Below are positions 6,001-15,000 of a stretch of DNA of 57,968 nt, piece by piece. Every line of letters begins with the position of its first letter. Position 1 is the first letter of the stretch. Position numbers: made by a program. Source of the DNA: Coleofasciculus sp. B1-GNL1-01 (GTDB lineage Bacteria > Cyanobacteriota > Cyanobacteriia > Cyanobacteriales > Coleofasciculaceae); the NCBI GenBank assembly GCA_040220235.1, contig JAVJTO010000080.1; one strand, given 5' to 3'.

Positions 6001-9000
6001 CCTCCTTCGCTTTTTTGGCAAGGGGGAGGGGAGTAAGAGAATCTGGTTCCCCTTCTCCCACCCCCCTCGTTCCCCCCTACGAAGAGGGGGGAAGACAGCG
6101 GATGCTTCGCTTTTTTTGCACGGGAGAAGGGGTTAGGGGATGAGGGGGAAAATTTGAGCCATCAGTGTCAACTTTAAGTGCGATCGCATCTGTGTCTGTC
6201 GTTCTGAGTCGAGTTCGAGGCTAAAAGCGCAAGTCGTCTAAAGATGACTCAAATTCTTATAGAAACAACCCCAACAGTTAGACACGTCTGTCTACATCGA
6301 AACGCTTTGGCTATACCCTAGTTATTAGACGAGGAGAAGAAAATGCCGTGAATGTTTTAATTGGCAACCGGAAATGATAGGAAAAGAATTACTATGACCA
6401 CCGAATATCACGTCAAACTGATTCAAACCGGAAATACCCAAACCCTAACCATTCCCCAAGACTTAACTCTATCTACAACAGATGTCACCATCCGCCAAGA
6501 AGACGGCAAACTGATTATCGAACCCTACCAGAAAAAATCCCTCCTCTGTGTTCTCGCCACTCTCGAACCCCTAGATGAAGACTTTCCCAATGTTGACGCA
6601 GGAGTATTACCCCTAGACGATATCGAAGTTTAAAAAGACGCGCCTTGGTTTCTCTCTACGGATATGGATTACTGCTATTTATTAGATACGAACATCATTT
6701 CAGAATTAGTGCGATCGCAGATCTTGTCGGGTGCGTTAATGAAATGTAACGCACCCTGTATAGTGCGATCGCATCTGTATCTGTCGTCCTGAGTCGAGTT
6801 CGAGGCTCAAAGCGTCCTTAGTCGAGGCTCAAAGCGTCCTCGGCGAGGCTCAAAGCGTCCTCGGCGAGGCTCAAAGCGTCCTTAGTCGAGGCTCAAAGCG
6901 TCCTCGGCGAGGCTCAAAGCGTCCTTAGTCAAGGCTCTAAGCGTCATGGGCGAGGCTTAGAGCGTCCTTAGTCAAGGCTCTAAGCGTCATGGGCGAGGCT
7001 TAGAGCGTCCTTAGTCGAGGCTCAAAGCGTCATGGGCGAGGCTCAAAGCGTCATGGGCGAGGCTCAGAGCGTCCTTAGTCGAGGGTCTATTGGCGTCATA
7101 TTAAGACGTTCCGGCGGAACGTCTCTACCATCATGATGCTTACCGTCACCCCATCACCCCACACTGGCAAGAATTCAAAGCCTCTCTCCTTGCAGGAGAG
7201 AGGTTTGGAGAGAGGTTTCCCCCTCTGTCTTTTGCTATACCATAGTTAGCATCTCCTGTCTCAATTCCCCCATGGATGAACAACGCCAACACGCCTATCT
7301 AACCCTGATTACTGCCCTATTAACCTGTCCCAATAGTGAGGAAGGGCAGATTTTACAGGATAACGCTGAGTTAGTGGATGCCGGGTTGGTGGAAACCATG
7401 GCACAGGTGGCGGAAGCGTTAGCAGAGAGGGGCGATGAAAATGCGGCACAGTTTTTAATCGGAATGGCGAATCAGTTAGGGGAATTTTTGGGATTATCTG
7501 ACTCAACGGCTACTCCTGAAGCTCAACTGCGCTTTCTGCTTGAAGTATTACAAGCAACGTCAGATAGTAGAGGTAATCCGCAAGTTGTCTATCCCCTCCT
7601 CCAGCAAAACCTGCATCTATTGGATGATAACTTTGCCCGGATATTGTATAACTGGGCAACCGCAAAACTGGCAGAGGTGAAACCCGCACAAGCTAGAAGC
7701 ATTGCTGTAGATATTGTCGGATTCAGTAATCTGATCCAGGATTTCCCTCTAGGGAGTCAAGCCACTAACCTGGAAATCGCGATTACAGGTTGTCAAGTAG
7801 CACTGACTCTCTTTACCCGCGAGAATCACTCAAAAAATTGGGCAACCCTTCAAAATAATCTGGGGAATGCCTACTGTGACAGAATCAGGGGAGAGAGGGC
7901 AGAGAATATGGAAAATGCGATCGCATCCTTTCAAGCCGCCCTTGAAGTAAGAACCCGTGAAGCCTTTCCCAGGGACTGGGCAACCCTTCAAAATAATCTG
8001 GGGACTGCCTACTTTGACAGAATTCGGGGAGAGAGGGCAGAGAATATCGAAAGTGCGATCATATCTTATCAAGCCGCCCTTGAAGTAAGAACCCGTGACG
8101 CCTTTCCCAGCCACTGGGCAGGTACGCAATATAATCTGGGGAATGCCTACTATCAGAGAATCAGGGGAGAGAGGGCAGAAAATATCGAAACTGCGATCGC
8201 ATCCTTTCAAGCCGCCCTGGAAGTCTACACCCGTGACGCCTTTCCTAGCCAATGGGCAATGACGCAACATAATCTGGGGACTGCCTACTATCAGAGAATC
8301 CGGGGAGGGAGGGCAGAAAATATCGAAACTGCGATCATATCTTATCAAGCCGCCCTGGAAGTCTACACCCGTGACGCCTTTCCCAGCGACTGGGCAAGAA
8401 CGCAACATAATCTGGGGAATGCCTACCATCAGAGAATCCGGGGAGAGAAGGCTGAGAATATGGAAAGTGCGATCGCATCCTATCAAGCCGCCCTTCAAGT
8501 CAGAACCCGTGACGCCTTTCCTAGCCAATGGGCAGCTACGCAAAATAGTCTGGGGAATGCCTACTATCAGAGAATCCGGGGAGAGAGGGCAGAGAATATC
8601 GAAACTGCGATCACATCTCTTCAAGCCGCCCTAGACGTCTATACCCGTGACGCCTTTCCCAGCGACTGGGCAATGACGCAAAATAGTCTGGGGAATGCCT
8701 ACTATCAGAGAATCCGGGGAGAGAGGGCAGAGAATATCGAAACTGCGATCGCATCCTATCAAGCCGCCCTAGACGTCTATACCCGTGACGCCTTTCCCAG
8801 CGACTGGGCAATGACGCAAAATAATCTGGGGATTGCCTACAGTGGAAGAATTCGGGGGGAGAGGGTTGAGAATATCGAAACTGCGATCGCATCCTTTCAA
8901 GCCGCCCTAGATGTCTACACCCGTCAAGCCTTTCCTAACAACTGGGCAATGACGCAAAATAATCTGGGGACTGCCTACAGAAACAGAATCCGGGGAGGGG

Positions 9001-12000: not shown

Positions 12001-15000
12001 TCTACTCAACCAAATCCCCCCAACCTCCCTCGACTACGCCCGATGCTTGCGTGACTTACGCGCCCACCAGACGGCGATGGAAACCAACATCACAAATCTT
12101 GAAGAATGTCAAACTCAAATCAAAGCTATCGGCAATATCCCCCAATTCTGGGACGAATTCCTCAAAGCAAGCCACATCTGGAAACAGCAAATCCAAACCG
12201 ATATCAATTATCTGTCACCGGGACAAGACTTATTCGGACAAATGCTGGAAACCGTGCGAGGTATCGTAGACTTAGATCAAGCAGAACGCGATCGCACTTT
12301 AGACCAGAAGCTGCAAAACCTAGAACTGTGGATAGCCGTAGTCGGAACCGGATTAGCCGTGAGTGGGATATCCTCCCAAGTCGATTCCCAACCCATCCAA
12401 ACCTTGATCCAGAATCAAACCAACTCTGATACACCTGTATGTCCCAGTGCAGGTGTGGTGAAATGTACCACCTACAATGGTTTCAACGTCCTGATTCATA
12501 TTATCATTGCCGTTGCGATCGCACTTCCCATCGGTTTAATCATTCGATCTATTCGACATCGATAAGTTCCCCGAAAATGTAGGGGCACCATCCTTGCGCC
12601 CTTAATCCAATATTGCCTCAGACTCGTTATCTTAAATTAATACAATTCATACTTTAAAAACGTACAAGGAATCGATCCGTTATACACTGGAATTCGGCGC
12701 GATGCTTTCAATCCGACTCGCTTTGCCAACTGCTTATTCCCGGTTAAAATAAATGCCGTCCAGCCTTTAAACCGTTGTTTAAAAATATCACCGAGTAACT
12801 TATATAACTCTCCCAATTCCTGAACATTGCCTAACCGTTCTCCGTAAGGAGGATTGCAGATAATTATCCCGCGATCGGCTGGCGGTTCTAGTTGAGCAAG
12901 GTCTTGTTGAACAAAAGTAATCGGGTCAAAAATGCCACAATCCTGGGCATTACTCCGGGCTTGGTTGAGGATATCCGCCGCGCGATCGCATCCGATAATG
13001 GGTGCAGCTAATTCCTTGTGCTGACAGGCTTTTGCCTCGTTGAGCAGGTGTTGCCAAAGGATGGGATTAAAGTCTAACCACCGCTCAAATCCAAACTGTT
13101 CTCGAAACAATCCTGGCGCAATATTTAAACTGATTAAACTAGCTTCTAAAGGTATCGTTCCGGAACCACACATAGGGTCTAATAATGGTAAATTCGGACG
13201 CCATTCTGCTAATTCTAACAATGCAGCCGCTAAGGTTTCTTTCAGGGGAGCAAGCCCCATTGCAGATCGATAGCCGCGTCGATGTAGACTGGTTCCTGAA
13301 CTATCTAAACTGAGAATACATCGATTTTGATGAATGTGAACATTGACTAACAAGTCAGGCTTTTCTATATTAACACTCGACCGCTTACCAAACTGACTGC
13401 GTTGTTGATCAACGATCGCATTCTTGACTTGCAGGGCGGTAAAGTGGCTATGATTAAGCTGTTTCGTCTTTCCAGTTGCATTCACAGCCAGGGTTTGCTG
13501 GGGTTTCAGGTATTGCGCCCAGGGGATAGTTTGGATTCCCTGATACAGTTGTTTCGCATTCGCACAAGGAAATTCAGCTAAAACAACCAGTACCCGAAAA
13601 ATCGTTCTCGCCCAGAGATTCACCCGATACATTAACGCCGTATCCCCCTGAAAATGCACCCCCGTAAAATCCGGACGCACCTCCTGCGCCCCTAGGCATT
13701 CAAGTTCTTGCGCCGCAATGGGTTCTAATCCACGGGCGACTGTGGCAAAGTAGTGGTTCACGTTTTATGCAGGTGGGGATTGTCATTGGTCATTGGTCAT
13801 TGGTCATTGGTCATTGGTCATTGGTCATTGGTCATTGGTCATTGGTCATTGGTCATTGGTCATTGGTCATTGGTCATTGGTCATTGGTCATTGGTCATTG
13901 TAGGTACGAAGCGTGTCAGAAGCGCTAAAGCGCTTACTACAAACTTTCAATTCAGTGTCATTCTACTTAAAATAGGCTTTATAAAAGCTCTTTTAACAAG
14001 GTTTCAGTTAACAACGAGTCAGTGAATGAACCTGATTCATCAGAATCATCAAATAACTGGGTCATGTAGTCAAAGTTTCCTTCACCGACATTTTTTCGCA
14101 AGATGTTGATAATCGTTTCTGGGTTATCGTAAGGACCACTAATATAAAAGGGTTTACCATTGCGACCCATTTGAATTTTGGGTTGACCACTCCACTTGCC
14201 TAAATGAAATCGCGATTGCTGAAAATCTTGATGGGGTTTAAATCCTAATTGGTCGGCATAGTCTACGGCACTATACACTAGGGCTTGGGCTTGTTCAAGG
14301 GTAATTTTTTGAGGACCTTCGGGAAAACCTTGATAGGCATAGTCTAGCATCTGTTTATATTCAACTGAATTCAGTTGACGCGGACCCATGGTATCTTTGA
14401 CGCCGAGACACCATACATCGAGTAGGTAAGTACAAACGGTGAATCGGTCATACTTGGCTTTGCGGGTAATACAGACTAAGGCTAACCCTCGGTCAATATT
14501 TGCCTCGGTTTCTTCGATTGGATCAGGGTTTTCGTGGAGATAATAGTCCGCACAGTTGGCGTTGACAAAGCATTCGACAACGGGATCTAGTTCTCCCGAT
14601 GCGGCACGGGCAAGTGTTTTTTCTTCCGCCTGTTCTTTGATATAGGCGGTGACTTCAGCCGCCCGTAATCCTAATTTGCGAGCAATTTGTTTCGGTGTTA
14701 AGTTGCGATCGCGTAGTTCGGTGATTTCTTGTTTTTGTTCGGGTGTCATTTTTTTGTCCTTCGTCATTCGTCATTCGTCATACTCGCTTCGCGAGAAGCA
14801 AGCTACGTCATTCGTCATTCGTTACACTATCGATAGTTTAACTACACTGTGGCTGATTCAAACTCAACTTTGTCATAAATTTCTTCTAGAGTTATTTGGA
14901 ATGAAAACGAGTTTAGATTAACGATTTCATTAGCATCATCATATTCATAGAATGTCCAGCGTTTTCGCTCGGTTTTGAAATAGTGTTCAATGTGCATCGT

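What a model noticed while it worked through the whole genome (the two positions that open the first line are those of the whole stretch)
7272..12565. CHAT protease - small acidic protein - CorA-like membrane protein operon, seven copies
Seven loci carry the same three-gene module: a giant TPR/HEAT-CHAT (or caspase-STAND) protease, a fast-evolving 115-150-aa acidic protein, and a 460-510-aa protein of no known family whose model looks like the CorA ion channel (alpha/beta head, long stalk helices, two C-terminal membrane helices). I read it as a protease-triggered membrane-pore suicide or defence module: the CHAT protease cleaves the small protein (inhibitor or adaptor) and so opens the CorA-like pore, a cyanobacterial analogue of caspase-gasdermin. 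New would be a widespread, undescribed cell-death effector family and its trigger in multicellular cyanobacteria.
Evidence so far: Modules: g03768-70 (C80:7272-12565), g06699-97 (C157:127386-132594), g04309-07 (C89:5680-10617), g01782-84 (C40:1112-5584), g01059-57 (C24:231-6868), g06503-04 beside caspase-STAND g06502 (C151:999-7520), g01221-22 (C27:22330-26128). None of the 13 partner proteins has a Pfam hit at E<=0.001. 253 homologues, all 'hypothetical', nearly all from filamentous cyanobacteria. AlphaFold2 model of g03770: pLDDT 77.6, pTM 0.73. Foldseek PDB: all listed hits are CorA/ZntB/CmaX, best E 3e-4, prob 0.87-0.99, TM 0.13-0.25. VIA-align second look: CorA, Mrs2, ZntB lead (Z 12.5, rmsd 2.4, 118 aligned; whole-chain CorA alignments Z 10, 253-259 aligned, rmsd 15). 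Two C-terminal hydrophobic helices in 5 of 7 p [...]
(Added by a program. Inside this text positions count along the whole contig: contig position 1 is position 1 of the stretch shown here. "Call 12" and the like, gene names such as g00115 and contig names such as C1 are that model's own, and its searches are not shown. The text may have been shortened before it was handed on; [...] marks where a part breaks off. The agent that wrote the report below was given it as the finding of a first reader that could run no searches.)

Follow-up and report, generated by a model that had tools for sequence, protein, structure and literature searches.

The report
Caspase-like protease, adaptor, membrane-anchored effector module
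Three tightly packed genes of a filamentous cyanobacterium encode a caspase-like protease, a small linker protein and a membrane-anchored partner that look like an untested, protease-triggered self-defence or cell-death switch; the partner is not a CorA ion channel.

Summary
Window 7272-12565 carries three co-directional genes: an active-looking TPR-CHAT protease, a 129-aa acidic protein and a 473-aa protein with two C-terminal hydrophobic helices. The genome has 7 paralogues of the last gene: 5 beside CHAT, 1 beside a caspase-STAND-WD40 protein, 1 without a protease.

In 60 loci from 46 other cyanobacterial genomes, 53 have a caspase-fold protease gene next door.

The CorA reading is not supported. 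The CorA Pfam profile and a profile-profile comparison find nothing. The N-domain folded alone shows no CorA match. The helical-bundle scores are within noise.

The best structural relative is the actinobacterial CATRA protein ('CASPASE/TPR repeat-associated'), TM 0.58 over 353 residues. CATRA belongs to a ternary caspase system predicted in 2020, with its own small protein (CATASP). Its Pfam profiles do not detect this family.

New here:
- The small protein is fused to the protease's C-terminus in 6 loci.
- Its conserved C-terminal motif is predicted to dock on the big protein (ipSAE 0.70, best control 0.00).
- The two-helix membrane hairpin is replaced by a Death-like domain, with or without trypsin, in 2 loci. 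The junction is a conserved Asp-Arg linker.

I read it as a protease-licensed membrane effector. Cleavage, pore formation and a defence role are untested.

The parts
7272..10754 (+). Gene 1: TPR-CHAT protease, 1160 aa. It has a conserved N-terminal helical region, TPR-like repeats (about residues 170-660) and a C-terminal CHAT domain (residues 832-1158).
   Evidence: ORF. Pfam CHAT 1.6e-44, TPR_12 5e-25, TPR_10 4e-23. NCBIfam Csx29-type TPR-CHAT model 5.6e-22, 78 bits, below its cut-off of 300.
7851..9064 (+). 8.8 tandem copies of a 138-nt (46-aa) TPR-like unit inside gene 1: the presumed sensor arm, recently expanded.
   Evidence: Tandem Repeats Finder: period 138, 87% matches, score 1658.
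10236..10238 (+). Codon of catalytic His989 (motif SCHG).
   Evidence: Conserved column, His in 47 of 48 family-linked CHAT domains. Position checked.
10362..10364 (+). Codon of catalytic Cys1031 (motif LSACETG).
   Evidence: Cys in 48 of 48 family-linked CHAT domains. Position checked.
10758..11147 (+). Gene 2: small acidic protein, 129 aa, pI 4.3. It has an N-terminal helical domain (residues 1-75), a disordered linker and a conserved C-terminal motif.
   Evidence: ORF. No Pfam, NCBIfam or PADLOC family. One family across modules. Acidic (pI < 6) in 45 of 48. Fused to the CHAT C-terminus in 6 foreign loci.
11007..11111 (+). Small-protein residues 84-118: the linker end and the conserved motif PSxSSKELLxNAIKxNxP. 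This is the predicted docking segment.
   Evidence: Alignment A4, N108 nearly invariant. All confident contacts of the partner chain lie in residues 84-118.
11144..12565 (+). Gene 3: CATRA-like membrane-anchored protein, 473 aa, GTG start overlapping the stop of gene 2.
   Evidence: ORF, overlap. 1087 representative clusters. Structural match to CATRA-N proteins, TM 0.58/0.52 over 353 residues.
11144..11827 (+). Residues 1-228: alpha/beta N-domain with no clear known fold.
   Evidence: Models (pLDDT 78.7). Best VIA Z 5.9, Foldseek best E 0.016, and no CorA-type chain among the 50 rows shown by each search.
11828..12292 (+). Residues 229-383: long four-helix stalk with the most conserved polar residues (K241, N315, N318, Q349).
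   Evidence: Secondary structure. Conservation. Contacts with the small protein.
12290..12295 (+). Asp383-Arg384: a conserved pair in a low-confidence linker just before the first hydrophobic helix. It is the junction at which other C-terminal modules are swapped in, and the candidate cleavage site (inferred).
   Evidence: D in 94 and R in 103 of 135 representatives. pLDDT < 50 at residues 384-392. The family profile ends at position 386-392 in the Death-like-domain variants.
12320..12376 (+). Residues 393-411: first hydrophobic helix, weakly hydrophobic and rich in Gly/Ser/Thr (LELWIAVVGTGLAVSGISS).
   Evidence: Kyte-Doolittle 1.47. G403 kept in 81% of representatives.
12488..12544 (+). Residues 449-467: second, strongly hydrophobic helix, followed by a basic tail (RSIRHR).
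   Evidence: Kyte-Doolittle 2.95. Basic tails seen throughout alignment A1.

Best explanation
The locus is one copy of a protease-centred conflict module (immunity or programmed-death type) of filamentous cyanobacteria. By fold and by gene set it is a membrane-anchored, CHAT-linked relative of the CATRA caspase-dependent ternary systems.

Gene 1 is the sensor and trigger. A variable repeat arm (here freshly expanded TPR units) is joined to an intact caspase-fold CHAT protease.

Gene 2 is a small acidic tether. Its N-terminal helical domain belongs with the protease; in some genomes it is simply the protease's C-terminal extension. Its conserved C-terminal motif docks in a groove between the alpha/beta head and the helical stalk of gene 3's product.

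Gene 3 is a cytosolic head-plus-stalk platform. At its C-terminus, behind a conserved Asp-Arg linker, it carries an exchangeable output module. This is usually a Gly-rich plus strongly hydrophobic two-helix membrane hairpin, and rarely a Death-like domain with or without a trypsin protease.

Proposed working (inferred, not shown): a signal bound by the repeat arm switches on the tethered protease. The protease cuts the platform, most likely at or near the Asp-Arg linker, or else the tether's linker. The freed hairpin then oligomerises and makes the cytoplasmic membrane leaky, stopping or killing the affected cell of the filament. In the rare variants a downstream Death-domain caspase or trypsin is released or recruited instead.

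Shown by computation: gene order and its conservation, the intact catalytic pair, the fusion of tether to protease, the predicted tether-platform interface, and the exchange of the C-terminal module.

Inferred: the activating signal, the cleavage and its site, membrane damage, and the defence role.
For: (1) Conserved linkage.
- 6 of 7 own paralogues adjoin a caspase-fold protease gene.
- 53 of 60 loci from 46 other genomes do too: 44 with intact CHAT upstream on the same strand, 2 with broken CHAT, 7 with Peptidase_C14.

(2) The protease looks active. Catalytic His is present in 47 of 48 and Cys in 48 of 48 linked CHAT domains.

(3) Sensor parts vary around a constant core: TPR classes, HEAT, Clp_N, nSTAND1-WD40, GUN4 and a CARF-type Cas_APE2256 domain. 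The TPR units in the window are 8.8 tandem copies at 87% nucleotide identity.

(4) Tether.
- The small proteins form one family.
- They are fused to the CHAT C-terminus in 6 loci (hmmsearch E 2e-22 to 4e-7).
- The small gene's stop and the next gene's start overlap in 19 of the 44 loci where an ORF of 90-200 aa lies directly upstream.

(5) Predicted complex of the small protein with residues 1-392 of gene 3's product.
- ipSAE 0.49, 0.70 and 0.73, median 0.70; best of 3 controls 0.00.
- The mark was reached by 116 of 157 solved complexes and 2 of 215 mismatched pairs. These counts hold only roughly, because my own alignments were used.
- The runs agree in at least 39% of contacts; partner pLDDT is at least 65.
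- Contacts use small-protein residues 84-118 and the partner's helices 225-255 and 293-325 plus head strands, including K241, N315 and N318.

(6) Exchangeable output.
- In L087 the family profile positions 4-392 are followed by bDLD1 and Trypsin_2.
- In L088 positions 4-386 are followed by bDLD1, and a bDLD1-Peptidase_C14 gene lies two genes downstream.
- L087 sits beside bDLD1-iSTAND, a MoxR-type AAA protein and a vWA protein.

(7) Hairpin. 257 of 259 family proteins of 430 aa or more have at least one strongly hydrophobic C-terminal segment. The first helix is Gly-rich.

(8) Fold. The Atlas structural match to CATRA-N/CATRA-C proteins is TM 0.58/0.52 over 353 residues, against 0.33/0.46 over 204 for CorA.

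(9) Precedent. Proteolytic licensing of small pore-forming effectors (EACC1, Pepco) by linked caspase-like or trypsin-like proteases was shown experimentally in bioRxiv 10.1101/2025.11.14.688446 (passages read).
Against: - No experiment bears on this family.
- PADLOC finds nothing for genes 2 and 3.
- The window's neighbours are ordinary genes (an ABC permease, an RlmL-type methyltransferase, Uma2, TPR proteins), not a defence island.
- The Pfam CATRA-N, CATRA-C and DUF3422 profiles do not touch any of the 7 paralogues even at E <= 10. None of the 25 families shown for the 98 members scanned is CATRA. The CATRA kinship therefore rests on one structural comparison of predicted models.
- The cleavage site is a guess. 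The linker motifs of the small protein also differ by protease type, so the small protein could be the substrate.
- The first hydrophobic helix is only weakly hydrophobic (1.3-1.7), so a true two-pass topology is not certain.
- The variants with a Death-like domain have no small gene.
- The window's own copy has Gly at position 103, where 98% of 135 representatives and all 14 closest homologues have Asp. It might be a weakened copy.
- The nearly invariant positions are not clearly enriched in the predicted interface: 4 of 16, where about 3 are expected.
Confidence: 0.5

Rival explanations
1. The 473-aa protein is a CorA-type pentameric ion channel. The small protein is an inhibitor, and the CHAT protease destroys it to open the pore.
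For: - The Foldseek top rows against the PDB are all CorA or ZntB, with probability up to 0.99 and best E 8.3e-4.
- The overall order matches CorA: alpha/beta head, long helices, two C-terminal hydrophobic helices and a basic tail.
- A few VIA rows span head and stalk: MRS2 Z 11.4 and E. coli CorA cytosolic domain Z 9.3.
Against: - TM-scores are only 0.15-0.21 at rmsd 16-29 A.
- Unrelated helical bundles score higher (Z 13.5 and 12.7, against 11.9 for CorA), and the tool's own note puts Z below about 13 for helical bundles within chance.
- The N-domain folded alone gives a best Z of 5.9 and no CorA-type chain in 50 VIA or 50 Foldseek rows.
- PF01544 finds only the canonical CorA on C15 among 21 scored candidates.
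- hhalign gives probability 0.4%. The PDB profile search lists no CorA at E <= 10.
- There is no GMN motif, and the loop between the helices is 20-45 residues long.
- The hairpin is replaced by soluble domains in L087 and L088.
- The small protein is fused to the protease in 6 loci, which fits a tether better than a disposable plug.
Confidence: 0.07
2. The direction of signalling is reversed. The membrane-anchored protein, with the small protein, is the sensor or anchor that reports membrane or envelope damage and switches on the protease. The protease is the real effector and cuts many cellular proteins. This is what was first proposed on paper for EACC1.
For: - Kaur et al. 2020 (PMC7159879, passages read) proposed such a sensor role for the membrane component of EACC1-caspase pairs.
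- The head domain has a conserved surface (D103, Y105, G143, T145) that could bind a ligand.
- The protease is the only enzyme of the module.
Against: - The variable, repeat-rich parts expected of a sensor sit on the protease protein, not on the constant partner.
- The C-terminal position of the partner is filled by typical output modules, bDLD1 and bDLD1-trypsin, in L087 and L088.
- For EACC1 the experiment went the other way: the membrane protein is the cleaved effector.
Confidence: 0.18
3. The module is not a conflict system at all. It is regulated proteolysis for ordinary physiology of filamentous cyanobacteria, such as envelope or thylakoid remodelling, cell-cell communication or differentiation.
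For: - The family is confined to one order of cyanobacteria in the sample (68 of 401 genomes, all in the window's order).
- Neighbours in the window are housekeeping genes.
- RNA-library contigs of relatives cover parts of genes 1 and 3 in 4 of 4 runs laid. This would fit constitutive expression, but it is weak evidence.
Against: - Up to 7 divergent paralogues per genome (19-30% identity).
- Rapid turnover, with broken copies on C8 and in L053, L089, L091 and L104.
- Swapping of sensor domains.
- Ties to Death-like domains and to a MoxR-vWA-iSTAND system.
All of these are hallmarks of conflict systems rather than of a housekeeping pathway.
Confidence: 0.1

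Closest known systems
CATRA caspase-dependent ternary conflict system (CATRA-N PF20269 / CATRA-C PF20270, with the small protein CATASP). 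It was predicted by comparative genomics by Burroughs & Aravind, J Bacteriol 2020. That paper is not held in the library and I did not read it. I know it only from a sentence in PMC8195603, from the abbreviation list and introduction of bioRxiv 10.1101/2025.11.14.688446, and from the Pfam and cluster names.
   Same: - Three parts: a caspase-fold protease joined to TPR or other repeats, a protein of about 500 aa, and a small associated protein.
- The Atlas model of the window protein aligns to CATRA-N/CATRA-C proteins of 510-543 aa with TM 0.58/0.52 over 353 residues, window-protein residues 1-390.
- There is a variable 'effector position' (here).
   Different: - The Pfam CATRA-N and CATRA-C profiles find none of the 7 paralogues at E <= 10. 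CATRA-N has no hit above its cut-off in 401 cyanobacterial genomes.
- The protease here is mostly CHAT rather than C14.
- This family ends in a two-helix membrane hairpin. Whether CATRA proteins do could not be checked.
- The taxa differ: CATRA clusters are mostly Actinomycetota, this family is Cyanobacteriota.
- No kinship between the small protein and CATASP could be tested.
EACC1-caspase and Pepco-protease modules (Evans et al., bioRxiv 10.1101/2025.11.14.688446; abstract and passages read)
   Same: - A latent membrane-damaging protein is encoded next to a sensor-fused caspase-like protease and licensed by a site-specific cut.
- The same logic of a constant protease-effector pair with swapped sensors (nSTAND/Avs-type, DGR targets and others).
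   Different: - EACC1 is a protein of about 13 kDa with one conserved TM helix (PMC7159879), and Pepco is a 117-aa beta-barrel former.
- Here the partner is 450-510 aa with a large head-and-stalk platform and needs a third, tethering protein.
- There is no sequence hit to either family.
Caspase-gasdermin (animal, and bacterial gasdermin with its linked protease)
   Same: Working analogy only: a protease removes or unlocks an inhibitory part of a membrane-permeabilising protein.
   Different: - Gasdermins form beta-barrel pores from a soluble precursor.
- This protein is helical and already carries hydrophobic helices.
- PADLOC, which I recall holds gasdermin models (its model list was not checked in any call), gives no hit.
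Craspase: Csx29 (TPR-CHAT) with its substrates Csx30/Csx31 (type III-E CRISPR-Cas)
   Same: - A TPR-CHAT protease encoded beside its own protein substrates.
- The window's gene 1 matches the NCBIfam Csx29 model over residues 712-1079 (5.6e-22).
   Different: - The score of 78 bits is far below the model's cut-off of 300.
- No CRISPR-Cas genes lie beside the module.
- The partners are unrelated to Csx30/Csx31 by the family scans.
CorA/ZntB/Mrs2 metal-ion channels (PF01544)
   Same: The order of elements (alpha/beta head, long helices, two C-terminal hydrophobic helices, basic tail) and the Foldseek top rows.
   Different: See the membership test. There is no profile or profile-profile signal, no GMN motif, no head-domain match on its own, a long inter-helix loop and an exchangeable hairpin.

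Membership tests
CorA / MIT superfamily (PF01544) | Match to the CorA sequence profile | tested here: not met
   Pfam scan at E <= 1 lists no CorA for gene 3. PF01544 against the whole genome finds only C15:47557-48426 among 21 scored candidates. The profile of A1 against PDB sequences lists no CorA at E <= 10. hhalign of 135 family members against 26 CorA proteins gives probability 0.4%.
CorA / MIT superfamily (PF01544) | Gly-Met-Asn (GMN) signature at the outer end of the first membrane helix (feature recalled from general knowledge) | tested here: not met
   In alignment A1 the first hydrophobic helix ends in G-I-S-S-Q-V or similar, and no GMN is seen in any of the 19 rows.
CorA / MIT superfamily (PF01544) | CorA-type fold of the cytosolic head and funnel | tested here: inconclusive
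   Whole chain: Foldseek top rows are CorA/ZntB but with TM 0.15-0.21. VIA gives CorA Z 11.9, below unrelated bundles at 13.5. The Atlas structural TM is 0.33/0.46. Head domain alone: no CorA-type chain in the 50 VIA or 50 Foldseek rows shown.
CorA / MIT superfamily (PF01544) | Homopentameric channel | not testable with these tools
CATRA ternary system (PF20269 CATRA-N, PF20270 CATRA-C) | Match to the CATRA-N / CATRA-C profiles | tested here: not met
   No hit at E <= 1 for gene 3. Neither is among the 25 families shown for 98 members. Whole-genome searches at E <= 10 hit other places only. CATRA-N has 0 hits above its cut-off in 401 cyanobacterial genomes.
CATRA ternary system (PF20269 CATRA-N, PF20270 CATRA-C) | Same fold as CATRA proteins | tested here: met
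   Atlas structural search: a cluster with CATRA-N in 95% and CATRA-C in 91% of members, TM 0.58 by query and 0.52 by target, 353 residues aligned (1-390). The aligned part 'meets the bar for a name'. Feature score 0.88. Both sides are predicted models, and this is a single source.
CATRA ternary system (PF20269 CATRA-N, PF20270 CATRA-C) | Encoded beside a caspase-fold protease joined to TPR or other repeats (from the family's name) | tested here: met
   6 of 7 own loci and 53 of 60 foreign loci.
CATRA ternary system (PF20269 CATRA-N, PF20270 CATRA-C) | Third component: the small associated protein CATASP | tested here: inconclusive
   A small protein is present as its own gene in at least 42 foreign loci, is fused to CHAT in 6 foreign loci, and is present as its own gene in 6 of the 7 own loci. 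It matches no Pfam family, and the Atlas links it only to unnamed cyanobacterial clusters. No CATASP sequence or profile was at hand for comparison.
CHAT caspase-fold peptidase (PF12770), gene 1 | Profile match and the catalytic His/Cys pair | tested here: met
   E 1.6e-44 over 286 of 289 profile positions. His989 and Cys1031 lie in columns kept in 47 and 48 of 48 domains.
[quoted passage not shown] | Small protein with a single conserved TM helix and short flanks, 5' of a caspase gene (PMC7159879) | tested here: not met
   Gene 3 encodes 473 aa with a 390-residue cytosolic platform and two hydrophobic segments. The Pfam scans named no EACC1 match. Whether Pfam holds an EACC1 model was not checked.
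ClyA / Hbl / Nhe alpha-pore-forming toxins | Match to a family profile above its cut-off | tested here: not met
   The NCBIfam NheC model hits 5 of 98 members in one register (family about 256-425 against NheC 124-271), but at 13-24 bits against a cut-off of 420. The AhlB pore chain gives Z 10.3, within helical-bundle noise. This is a lead only.
Bacterial gasdermin | Match to a defence-system model of the family | tested here: not met
   PADLOC gives no hit for gene 3 at E <= 1. That PADLOC holds gasdermin models is recalled, not checked in any call. The model is helical behind an alpha/beta head.

The most novel reading that the evidence does not exclude
The family is a new class of protease-licensed, alpha-helical death effectors of multicellular cyanobacteria. 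A head-and-stalk platform holds a Gly-rich membrane hairpin in check and is wired to its own caspase-like protease by a dedicated tether protein. One cut at the conserved Asp-Arg linker frees the hairpin to form pores.

In some genomes the same platform instead carries a Death-like domain that recruits a second caspase. That would be a two-step caspase cascade with adaptor domains in a bacterium. The platform would then be a general 'caspase substrate adaptor', related to actinobacterial CATRA and possibly to ClyA/Nhe-type toxins.
Probability: 0.3. Interest if true: 0.8.

Novelty: new variant of a known kind. Interest (0 to 1): 0.6.

Why it matters
Filamentous cyanobacteria carry dozens of caspase-like proteases. 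This genome has about 60 CHAT and 10 C14 open frames. Their substrates are almost all unknown.

This module gives a concrete pair to test for one whole protease clade: a protease and a partner protein that is held to it by a tether and ends in a membrane hairpin.

The family is large and common:
- 1087 clusters at 50% identity.
- Present in 68 of 401 sampled cyanobacterial genomes, with up to 7 copies in one genome.
- No Pfam, NCBIfam or PADLOC model, so automatic annotation and defence-system finders miss it.

If the proposed working is right, it extends the newly shown rule that proteolysis licenses bacterial death effectors to a much larger, three-part system. It would also link that rule to Death-like adaptor domains, which bears on how caspase-based cell death arose in multicellular organisms. 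It would also give the paper-only CATRA/CATASP system a tractable cyanobacterial counterpart.

Tried and rejected
1. CorA homology. Tested by profile, by profile-profile comparison and by domain-wise fold search, and rejected.

2. 'Effector-associated domain' pairing. hhalign of the small protein against the conserved N-terminal region of 24 linked CHAT proteins gave probability 0.8-3.3%, so no kinship.

3. EACC1 and EACC2 of the Aravind group were read up. Neither fits. EACC1 is a one-helix mini-protein of actinobacteria, and EACC2 is fused to the caspase.

I used the genome search and the fetch from genomes instead.

5. A search for longer, fused forms found none among 7998 candidates, which the tool itself calls weak evidence. 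P0132 (1200 aa) joins TPR-CHAT to family positions 76-470, but the CHAT profile is cut at 271 of 289. It may be a deletion or a misassembly, so it is not used as evidence.

6. Expression.
- Seven RNA runs hold only 5-8% of the sampled words.
- Contigs of 4 runs, 90-99% alike and 100-630 nt long, lie on 7000-9482 and 11393-12538. None lies on 9483-11392 apart from a trace at 11011-11201.
- They come from relatives in mixed communities and may include DNA. They show neither an operon transcript nor the absence of one.

7. Rfam finds nothing in 6000-13000 at E <= 0.1. The promoter and terminator scans gave only consensus matches.

8. Earlier findings of this scan hold nothing at this place or with this sequence. 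A word search returned other CHAT modules (sigma/DUF1822, two-partner secretion), which are unrelated to this one.

9. Print searches.
- 'CHAT domain' + cyanobacteria + CorA: 0 papers.
- CHAT + protease + anti-phage + membrane + cyanobacteria: 12 papers, none on this module by title or abstract.
- DUF3422: 0 papers.
- Orthocaspase and CHAT terms: reviews only.
- CATASP: one relevant preprint.
- The primary CATRA paper (PMC7685563) is not held. It may already mention cyanobacterial relatives; I could not check this.

10. Enrichment of invariant residues in the predicted interface: 4 of 16 against about 3 expected, so no claim is made.

Full report
WHAT IS THERE

Window 7272-12565 holds three open frames on the + strand:
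- 7272-10754, 1160 aa.
- 10758-11147, 129 aa.
- 11144-12565, 473 aa.

They are packed head to tail. Genes 1 and 2 are 3 nt apart. Gene 2's stop overlaps gene 3's GTG start as GTGA. Gene 3's start is confirmed by homologues that begin MKNF... like it.

Gene 1 is a TPR-CHAT protein: Pfam CHAT 1.6e-44, TPR_12 5e-25. Its catalytic His989 and Cys1031 are in place. Its repeat arm contains 8.8 tandem copies of a 138-nt unit at 87% identity.

Genes 2 and 3 match no Pfam, NCBIfam or PADLOC family at E <= 0.001. The closest named homologue of gene 3 is a hypothetical protein of Coleofasciculus chthonoplastes PCC 7420, at 85% identity.

THE SEVEN COPIES

The laid genome (8.66 Mb, 172 contigs) has 7 full-length paralogues of gene 3, 19-30% identical to the window copy, and one broken fragment on C8.
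- Five follow a CHAT gene and a small gene: C80, C157, C89 and C24 with TPR arms, and C40 with a HEAT arm.
- One (C151) follows a small gene and faces a divergently transcribed caspase(C14)-nSTAND1-WD40 protein.
- One (C27) has neither a protease nor a small gene, only a TPR protein downstream.

The genome has about 60 CHAT and 10 C14 open frames. The five linked CHAT genes are among the six best matches to a profile built from family-linked CHAT domains, so one CHAT clade goes with this family.

HOW WIDE THE FAMILY IS

- A word-indexed search gives 253 homologues, all named 'hypothetical' where named and all from cyanobacteria.
- A profile search that reads every protein gives 1087 representative clusters at 50% identity with E <= 0.001, of which 637 have E <= 1e-30.
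- In an even sample of 401 cyanobacterial genomes, 68 have a match at E <= 1e-5. All 68 lie in the same order as the window's genome, in 39 of 156 genera, and often with several copies.

CONSERVED NEIGHBOURHOOD

I fetched 60 loci from 46 of those genomes. They were chosen from the top to the bottom of the match list, with about 8 kb on each side. I called ORFs and scanned the nearest large upstream protein.

Of the 51 loci with an ORF of at least 400 aa within three ORFs upstream:
- 44 have CHAT on the same strand.
- 6 have a divergent Peptidase_C14 protein: L073, L086, L093, L096, L098, L103.
- 1 has neither (L104, where the family gene itself is broken).

Of the other 9 loci, a local CHAT/C14 profile found a split CHAT gene (L089), a CHAT fragment (L091) and a convergent C14 gene (L105).

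The total is 53 of 60. The remaining 7 are:
- L077 and L084, which reach a contig end 1.3-1.6 kb upstream.
- L055, with a TPR fragment upstream.
- L094 and L095, with unrelated neighbours.
- L097, where a TPR region is fused to the C-terminal half of the family protein.
- L104.

The parts joined to the protease vary: several TPR classes, HEAT, Clp_N repeats (L088), nSTAND1-WD40, GUN4 (L103) and a CARF-type Cas_APE2256 domain (L086).

NOT A CorA CHANNEL

The model of gene 3's product (pLDDT 76.9, pTM 0.73) has:
- an alpha/beta head (residues 1-228),
- four long helices (229-383),
- a low-confidence break (384-392),
- a weakly hydrophobic Gly-rich helix (393-411),
- a loop,
- a strongly hydrophobic helix (449-467),
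- a basic tail.

Foldseek's top rows are indeed all CorA or ZntB, but with TM 0.15-0.21 and rmsd 16-29 A. A search that does not lean on Foldseek ranks designed and viral helical bundles first (Z 13.5 and 12.7), with CorA at 11.9. The tool states that Z below about 13 is common for helical bundles.

Further tests all came out negative for CorA:
- Folded alone, the head (pLDDT 78.7) gives a best Z of 5.9 and a best Foldseek E of 0.016. No CorA-type chain is among the rows shown.
- By sequence, the CorA Pfam profile finds only the genome's ordinary CorA.
- A family profile finds no CorA in the PDB at E <= 10.
- hhalign of 135 family members against 26 cyanobacterial CorA proteins gives probability 0.4%.
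- There is no GMN motif.

I therefore drop the CorA reading, except as a loose likeness in the order of elements.

THE BEST RELATIVE: CATRA

The ESM Atlas holds a model of this very protein. After three unnamed cyanobacterial clusters (TM 0.66-0.75), its nearest structural neighbours are:
- A cluster named 'CATRA conflict system CASPASE/TPR repeat-associated protein'. CATRA-N is on 95% and CATRA-C on 91% of its members, which are mostly Actinomycetota. TM is 0.58/0.52 over 353 residues (window-protein residues 1-390).
- DUF3422, at 0.48/0.52.
- CorA, only at 0.33/0.46 over 204 residues.

CATRA is cited as a 'caspase-dependent CATRA ternary conflict system' in PMC8195603 (one sentence read). 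A 2025 preprint lists 'CATASP, CATRA-associated small protein' among protease-associated modules that remain uncharacterised (passages read). The primary paper is not held.

The three-part make-up (caspase-fold protease with repeats, a roughly 500-aa protein, a small protein) is the same as here. But the kinship is not visible to the Pfam models:
- There is no CATRA-N or CATRA-C hit for gene 3.
- Neither is among the 25 families shown for 98 members.
- Neither hits the 7 paralogues at E <= 10.
- CATRA-N has 0 hits above its cut-off in 401 cyanobacterial genomes.

I file the module as CATRA-like by fold and by architecture, not as a proven member.

THE SMALL PROTEIN IS A TETHER

The small proteins of all module types align as one family. 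Each has:
- an N-terminal helical domain (conserved F11, L29, W52),
- a disordered linker,
- a conserved C-terminal motif, PSxSSKELLxNAIKxNxP in the window's subtype, with N108 nearly invariant.

They are acidic: pI < 6 in 45 of 48, median 4.8, after dropping two unrelated ORFs (L076, L097).

In six loci (L062, L064, L069, L072, L076, L090) no separate small gene exists. Instead the whole small protein is the C-terminal extension of the CHAT protein (hmmsearch E 2e-22 to 4e-7, covering profile positions 2-5 to 105-127).

In 19 of the 44 loci with an ORF of 90-200 aa directly upstream, that ORF overlaps the start of the family gene, and 11 of these overlaps are exactly 4 nt.

A complex prediction of the small protein with residues 1-392 of gene 3's product scored ipSAE 0.49, 0.70 and 0.73 (median 0.70). 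The best of three controls scored 0.00. That mark was reached by 116 of 157 solved complexes and 2 of 215 mismatched pairs in the tool's calibration; the counts hold only roughly here because my own alignments were used. The runs agree in at least 39% of contacts, and partner pLDDT is at least 65.

All confident contacts of the small protein lie in residues 84-118, which is the conserved motif. On the other side they lie on helices 225-255 and 293-325 and on head strands, and include K241, N315 and N318. This supports binding but does not show it.

The small protein's N-domain is not related to the CHAT protein's own N-terminal region.

THE C-TERMINUS IS AN EXCHANGEABLE OUTPUT

In L087 the family profile (positions 4-392) is followed by a bacterial Death-like domain (bDLD1) and a trypsin-like peptidase, instead of the hairpin. 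In L088 positions 4-386 are followed by bDLD1 alone. L088's neighbours are a Clp_N-CHAT protein upstream and a bDLD1-Peptidase_C14 protein two genes downstream. L087 lies between three CHAT genes and a bDLD1-iSTAND, MoxR-type AAA and vWA set. This is the kind of ternary system described in PMC7159879 and PMC8195603 (passages read).

The junction coincides with a conserved Asp-Arg pair (D in 94 and R in 103 of 135 representatives) in the low-confidence linker before the first hydrophobic helix.

Of 259 family proteins of 430 aa or more, 257 have at least one strongly hydrophobic C-terminal segment. At a threshold of 1.5, 180 have two or more. The first helix is Gly/Ser/Thr-rich and only weakly hydrophobic.

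Five of 98 members give weak hits, all in the same register, to the NCBIfam model of NheC, an alpha-helical pore-forming toxin subunit. The scores are 13-24 bits against a cut-off of 420. This is a lead, not a finding.

HOW IT MOST LIKELY WORKS

Shown by computation:
- A constant trio with a variable sensor.
- An intact protease.
- A tether that belongs to the protease and docks on the platform.
- An output module behind a conserved linker.

Inferred:
- A signal on the repeat arm activates the protease.
- The protease cuts the tethered platform (my best guess is at the Asp-Arg linker) or the tether's linker.
- The hairpin is freed to damage the membrane.
- The rare variants hand the signal to a Death-domain caspase or a trypsin instead.

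The recent experimental demonstration that EACC1 and Pepco are pore formers licensed by a cut from their linked proteases makes this logic plausible, though for unrelated proteins.

Against it:
- There is no experiment on this family.
- There is no defence-island context in the window and no PADLOC hit.
- The substrate is unknown.
- The window copy carries Gly103 where 98% of representatives and all 14 nearest homologues have Asp.

VERDICT

The protease-gated membrane-effector idea survives in altered form: a tether rather than an inhibitor, a hairpin rather than a channel.

The system is best placed as a new, cyanobacterial, membrane-anchored variant of the computer-predicted and experimentally untouched CATRA-type caspase systems. 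It is widespread, unannotated and directly testable.

Noticed in passing
window 6800-7084 and 7181-7226: A tandem array (periods 43 and 64 nt, 82-90% matches) and a strong hairpin lie just upstream of gene 1. Contigs from four RNA libraries pile up at 7000-7381 (summed word depth 7,000-18,000, against hundreds elsewhere) with many loose ends at 7170 and 7219. This is probably a short repeat element that is common in related genomes.
   Followed up: partly
window 7851-9064: The TPR arm of the CHAT gene is 8.8 tandem copies of a 138-nt unit at 87% nucleotide identity, so the sensor repeats expanded or were homogenised recently.
   Followed up: partly
window 11435-11452 (codons 98 and 103 of gene 3): The window's copy has Ser98 and Gly103. 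Its 14 closest homologues have Pro and Asp, and 85% and 98% of 135 representatives have Pro and Asp. It may be a weakened copy, a strain variant or a sequencing error.
   Followed up: partly
whole genome G000: About 60 open frames with a CHAT domain and 10 with a C14 caspase domain. Only 5 and 1 of them adjoin the family. The partners of the other roughly 64 proteases were not examined, apart from a look at six loci that showed no family gene.
   Followed up: partly
L086:10041-13502 (+): The caspase protein beside this module ends in a Cas_APE2256 (CARF-type) domain (5e-22). This hints that some modules are switched by a cyclic-oligonucleotide-type signal.
   Followed up: no
L087:2307-16992 and L088:5574-14501: These variants have the membrane hairpin replaced by bDLD1-trypsin or by bDLD1. 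L088 has a bDLD1-caspase gene nearby, and L087 a bDLD1-iSTAND/MoxR/vWA set. This suggests a possible two-step protease cascade with Death-like adaptors.
   Followed up: partly
G000:C8:10295-10633: A broken fragment of the family gene (2 TGA and 1 TAA inside the match) with no protease gene beside it. Further broken or split copies are in L053, L089, L091, L092 and L104.
   Followed up: no
P0132 (1200 aa, from the representative library): TPR-CHAT is joined directly to family positions 76-470. The end of CHAT, the small protein and the first 75 residues are missing. It is either a natural deletion fusion or a misassembly.
   Followed up: partly
window 6361-6633 (+) and 14842-15432 (-): A 90-aa ORF with a weak MazE-antitoxin match (E 0.001, below the cut-off) lies about 640 nt upstream of gene 1. 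A Uma2-family endonuclease gene lies downstream. No toxin partner was seen.
   Followed up: no
G000:C27:22330-26128: This paralogue lacks both the protease and the small gene and is followed by a 717-aa protein made only of TPR repeats. It may be an orphan or work with a protease encoded elsewhere.
   Followed up: no
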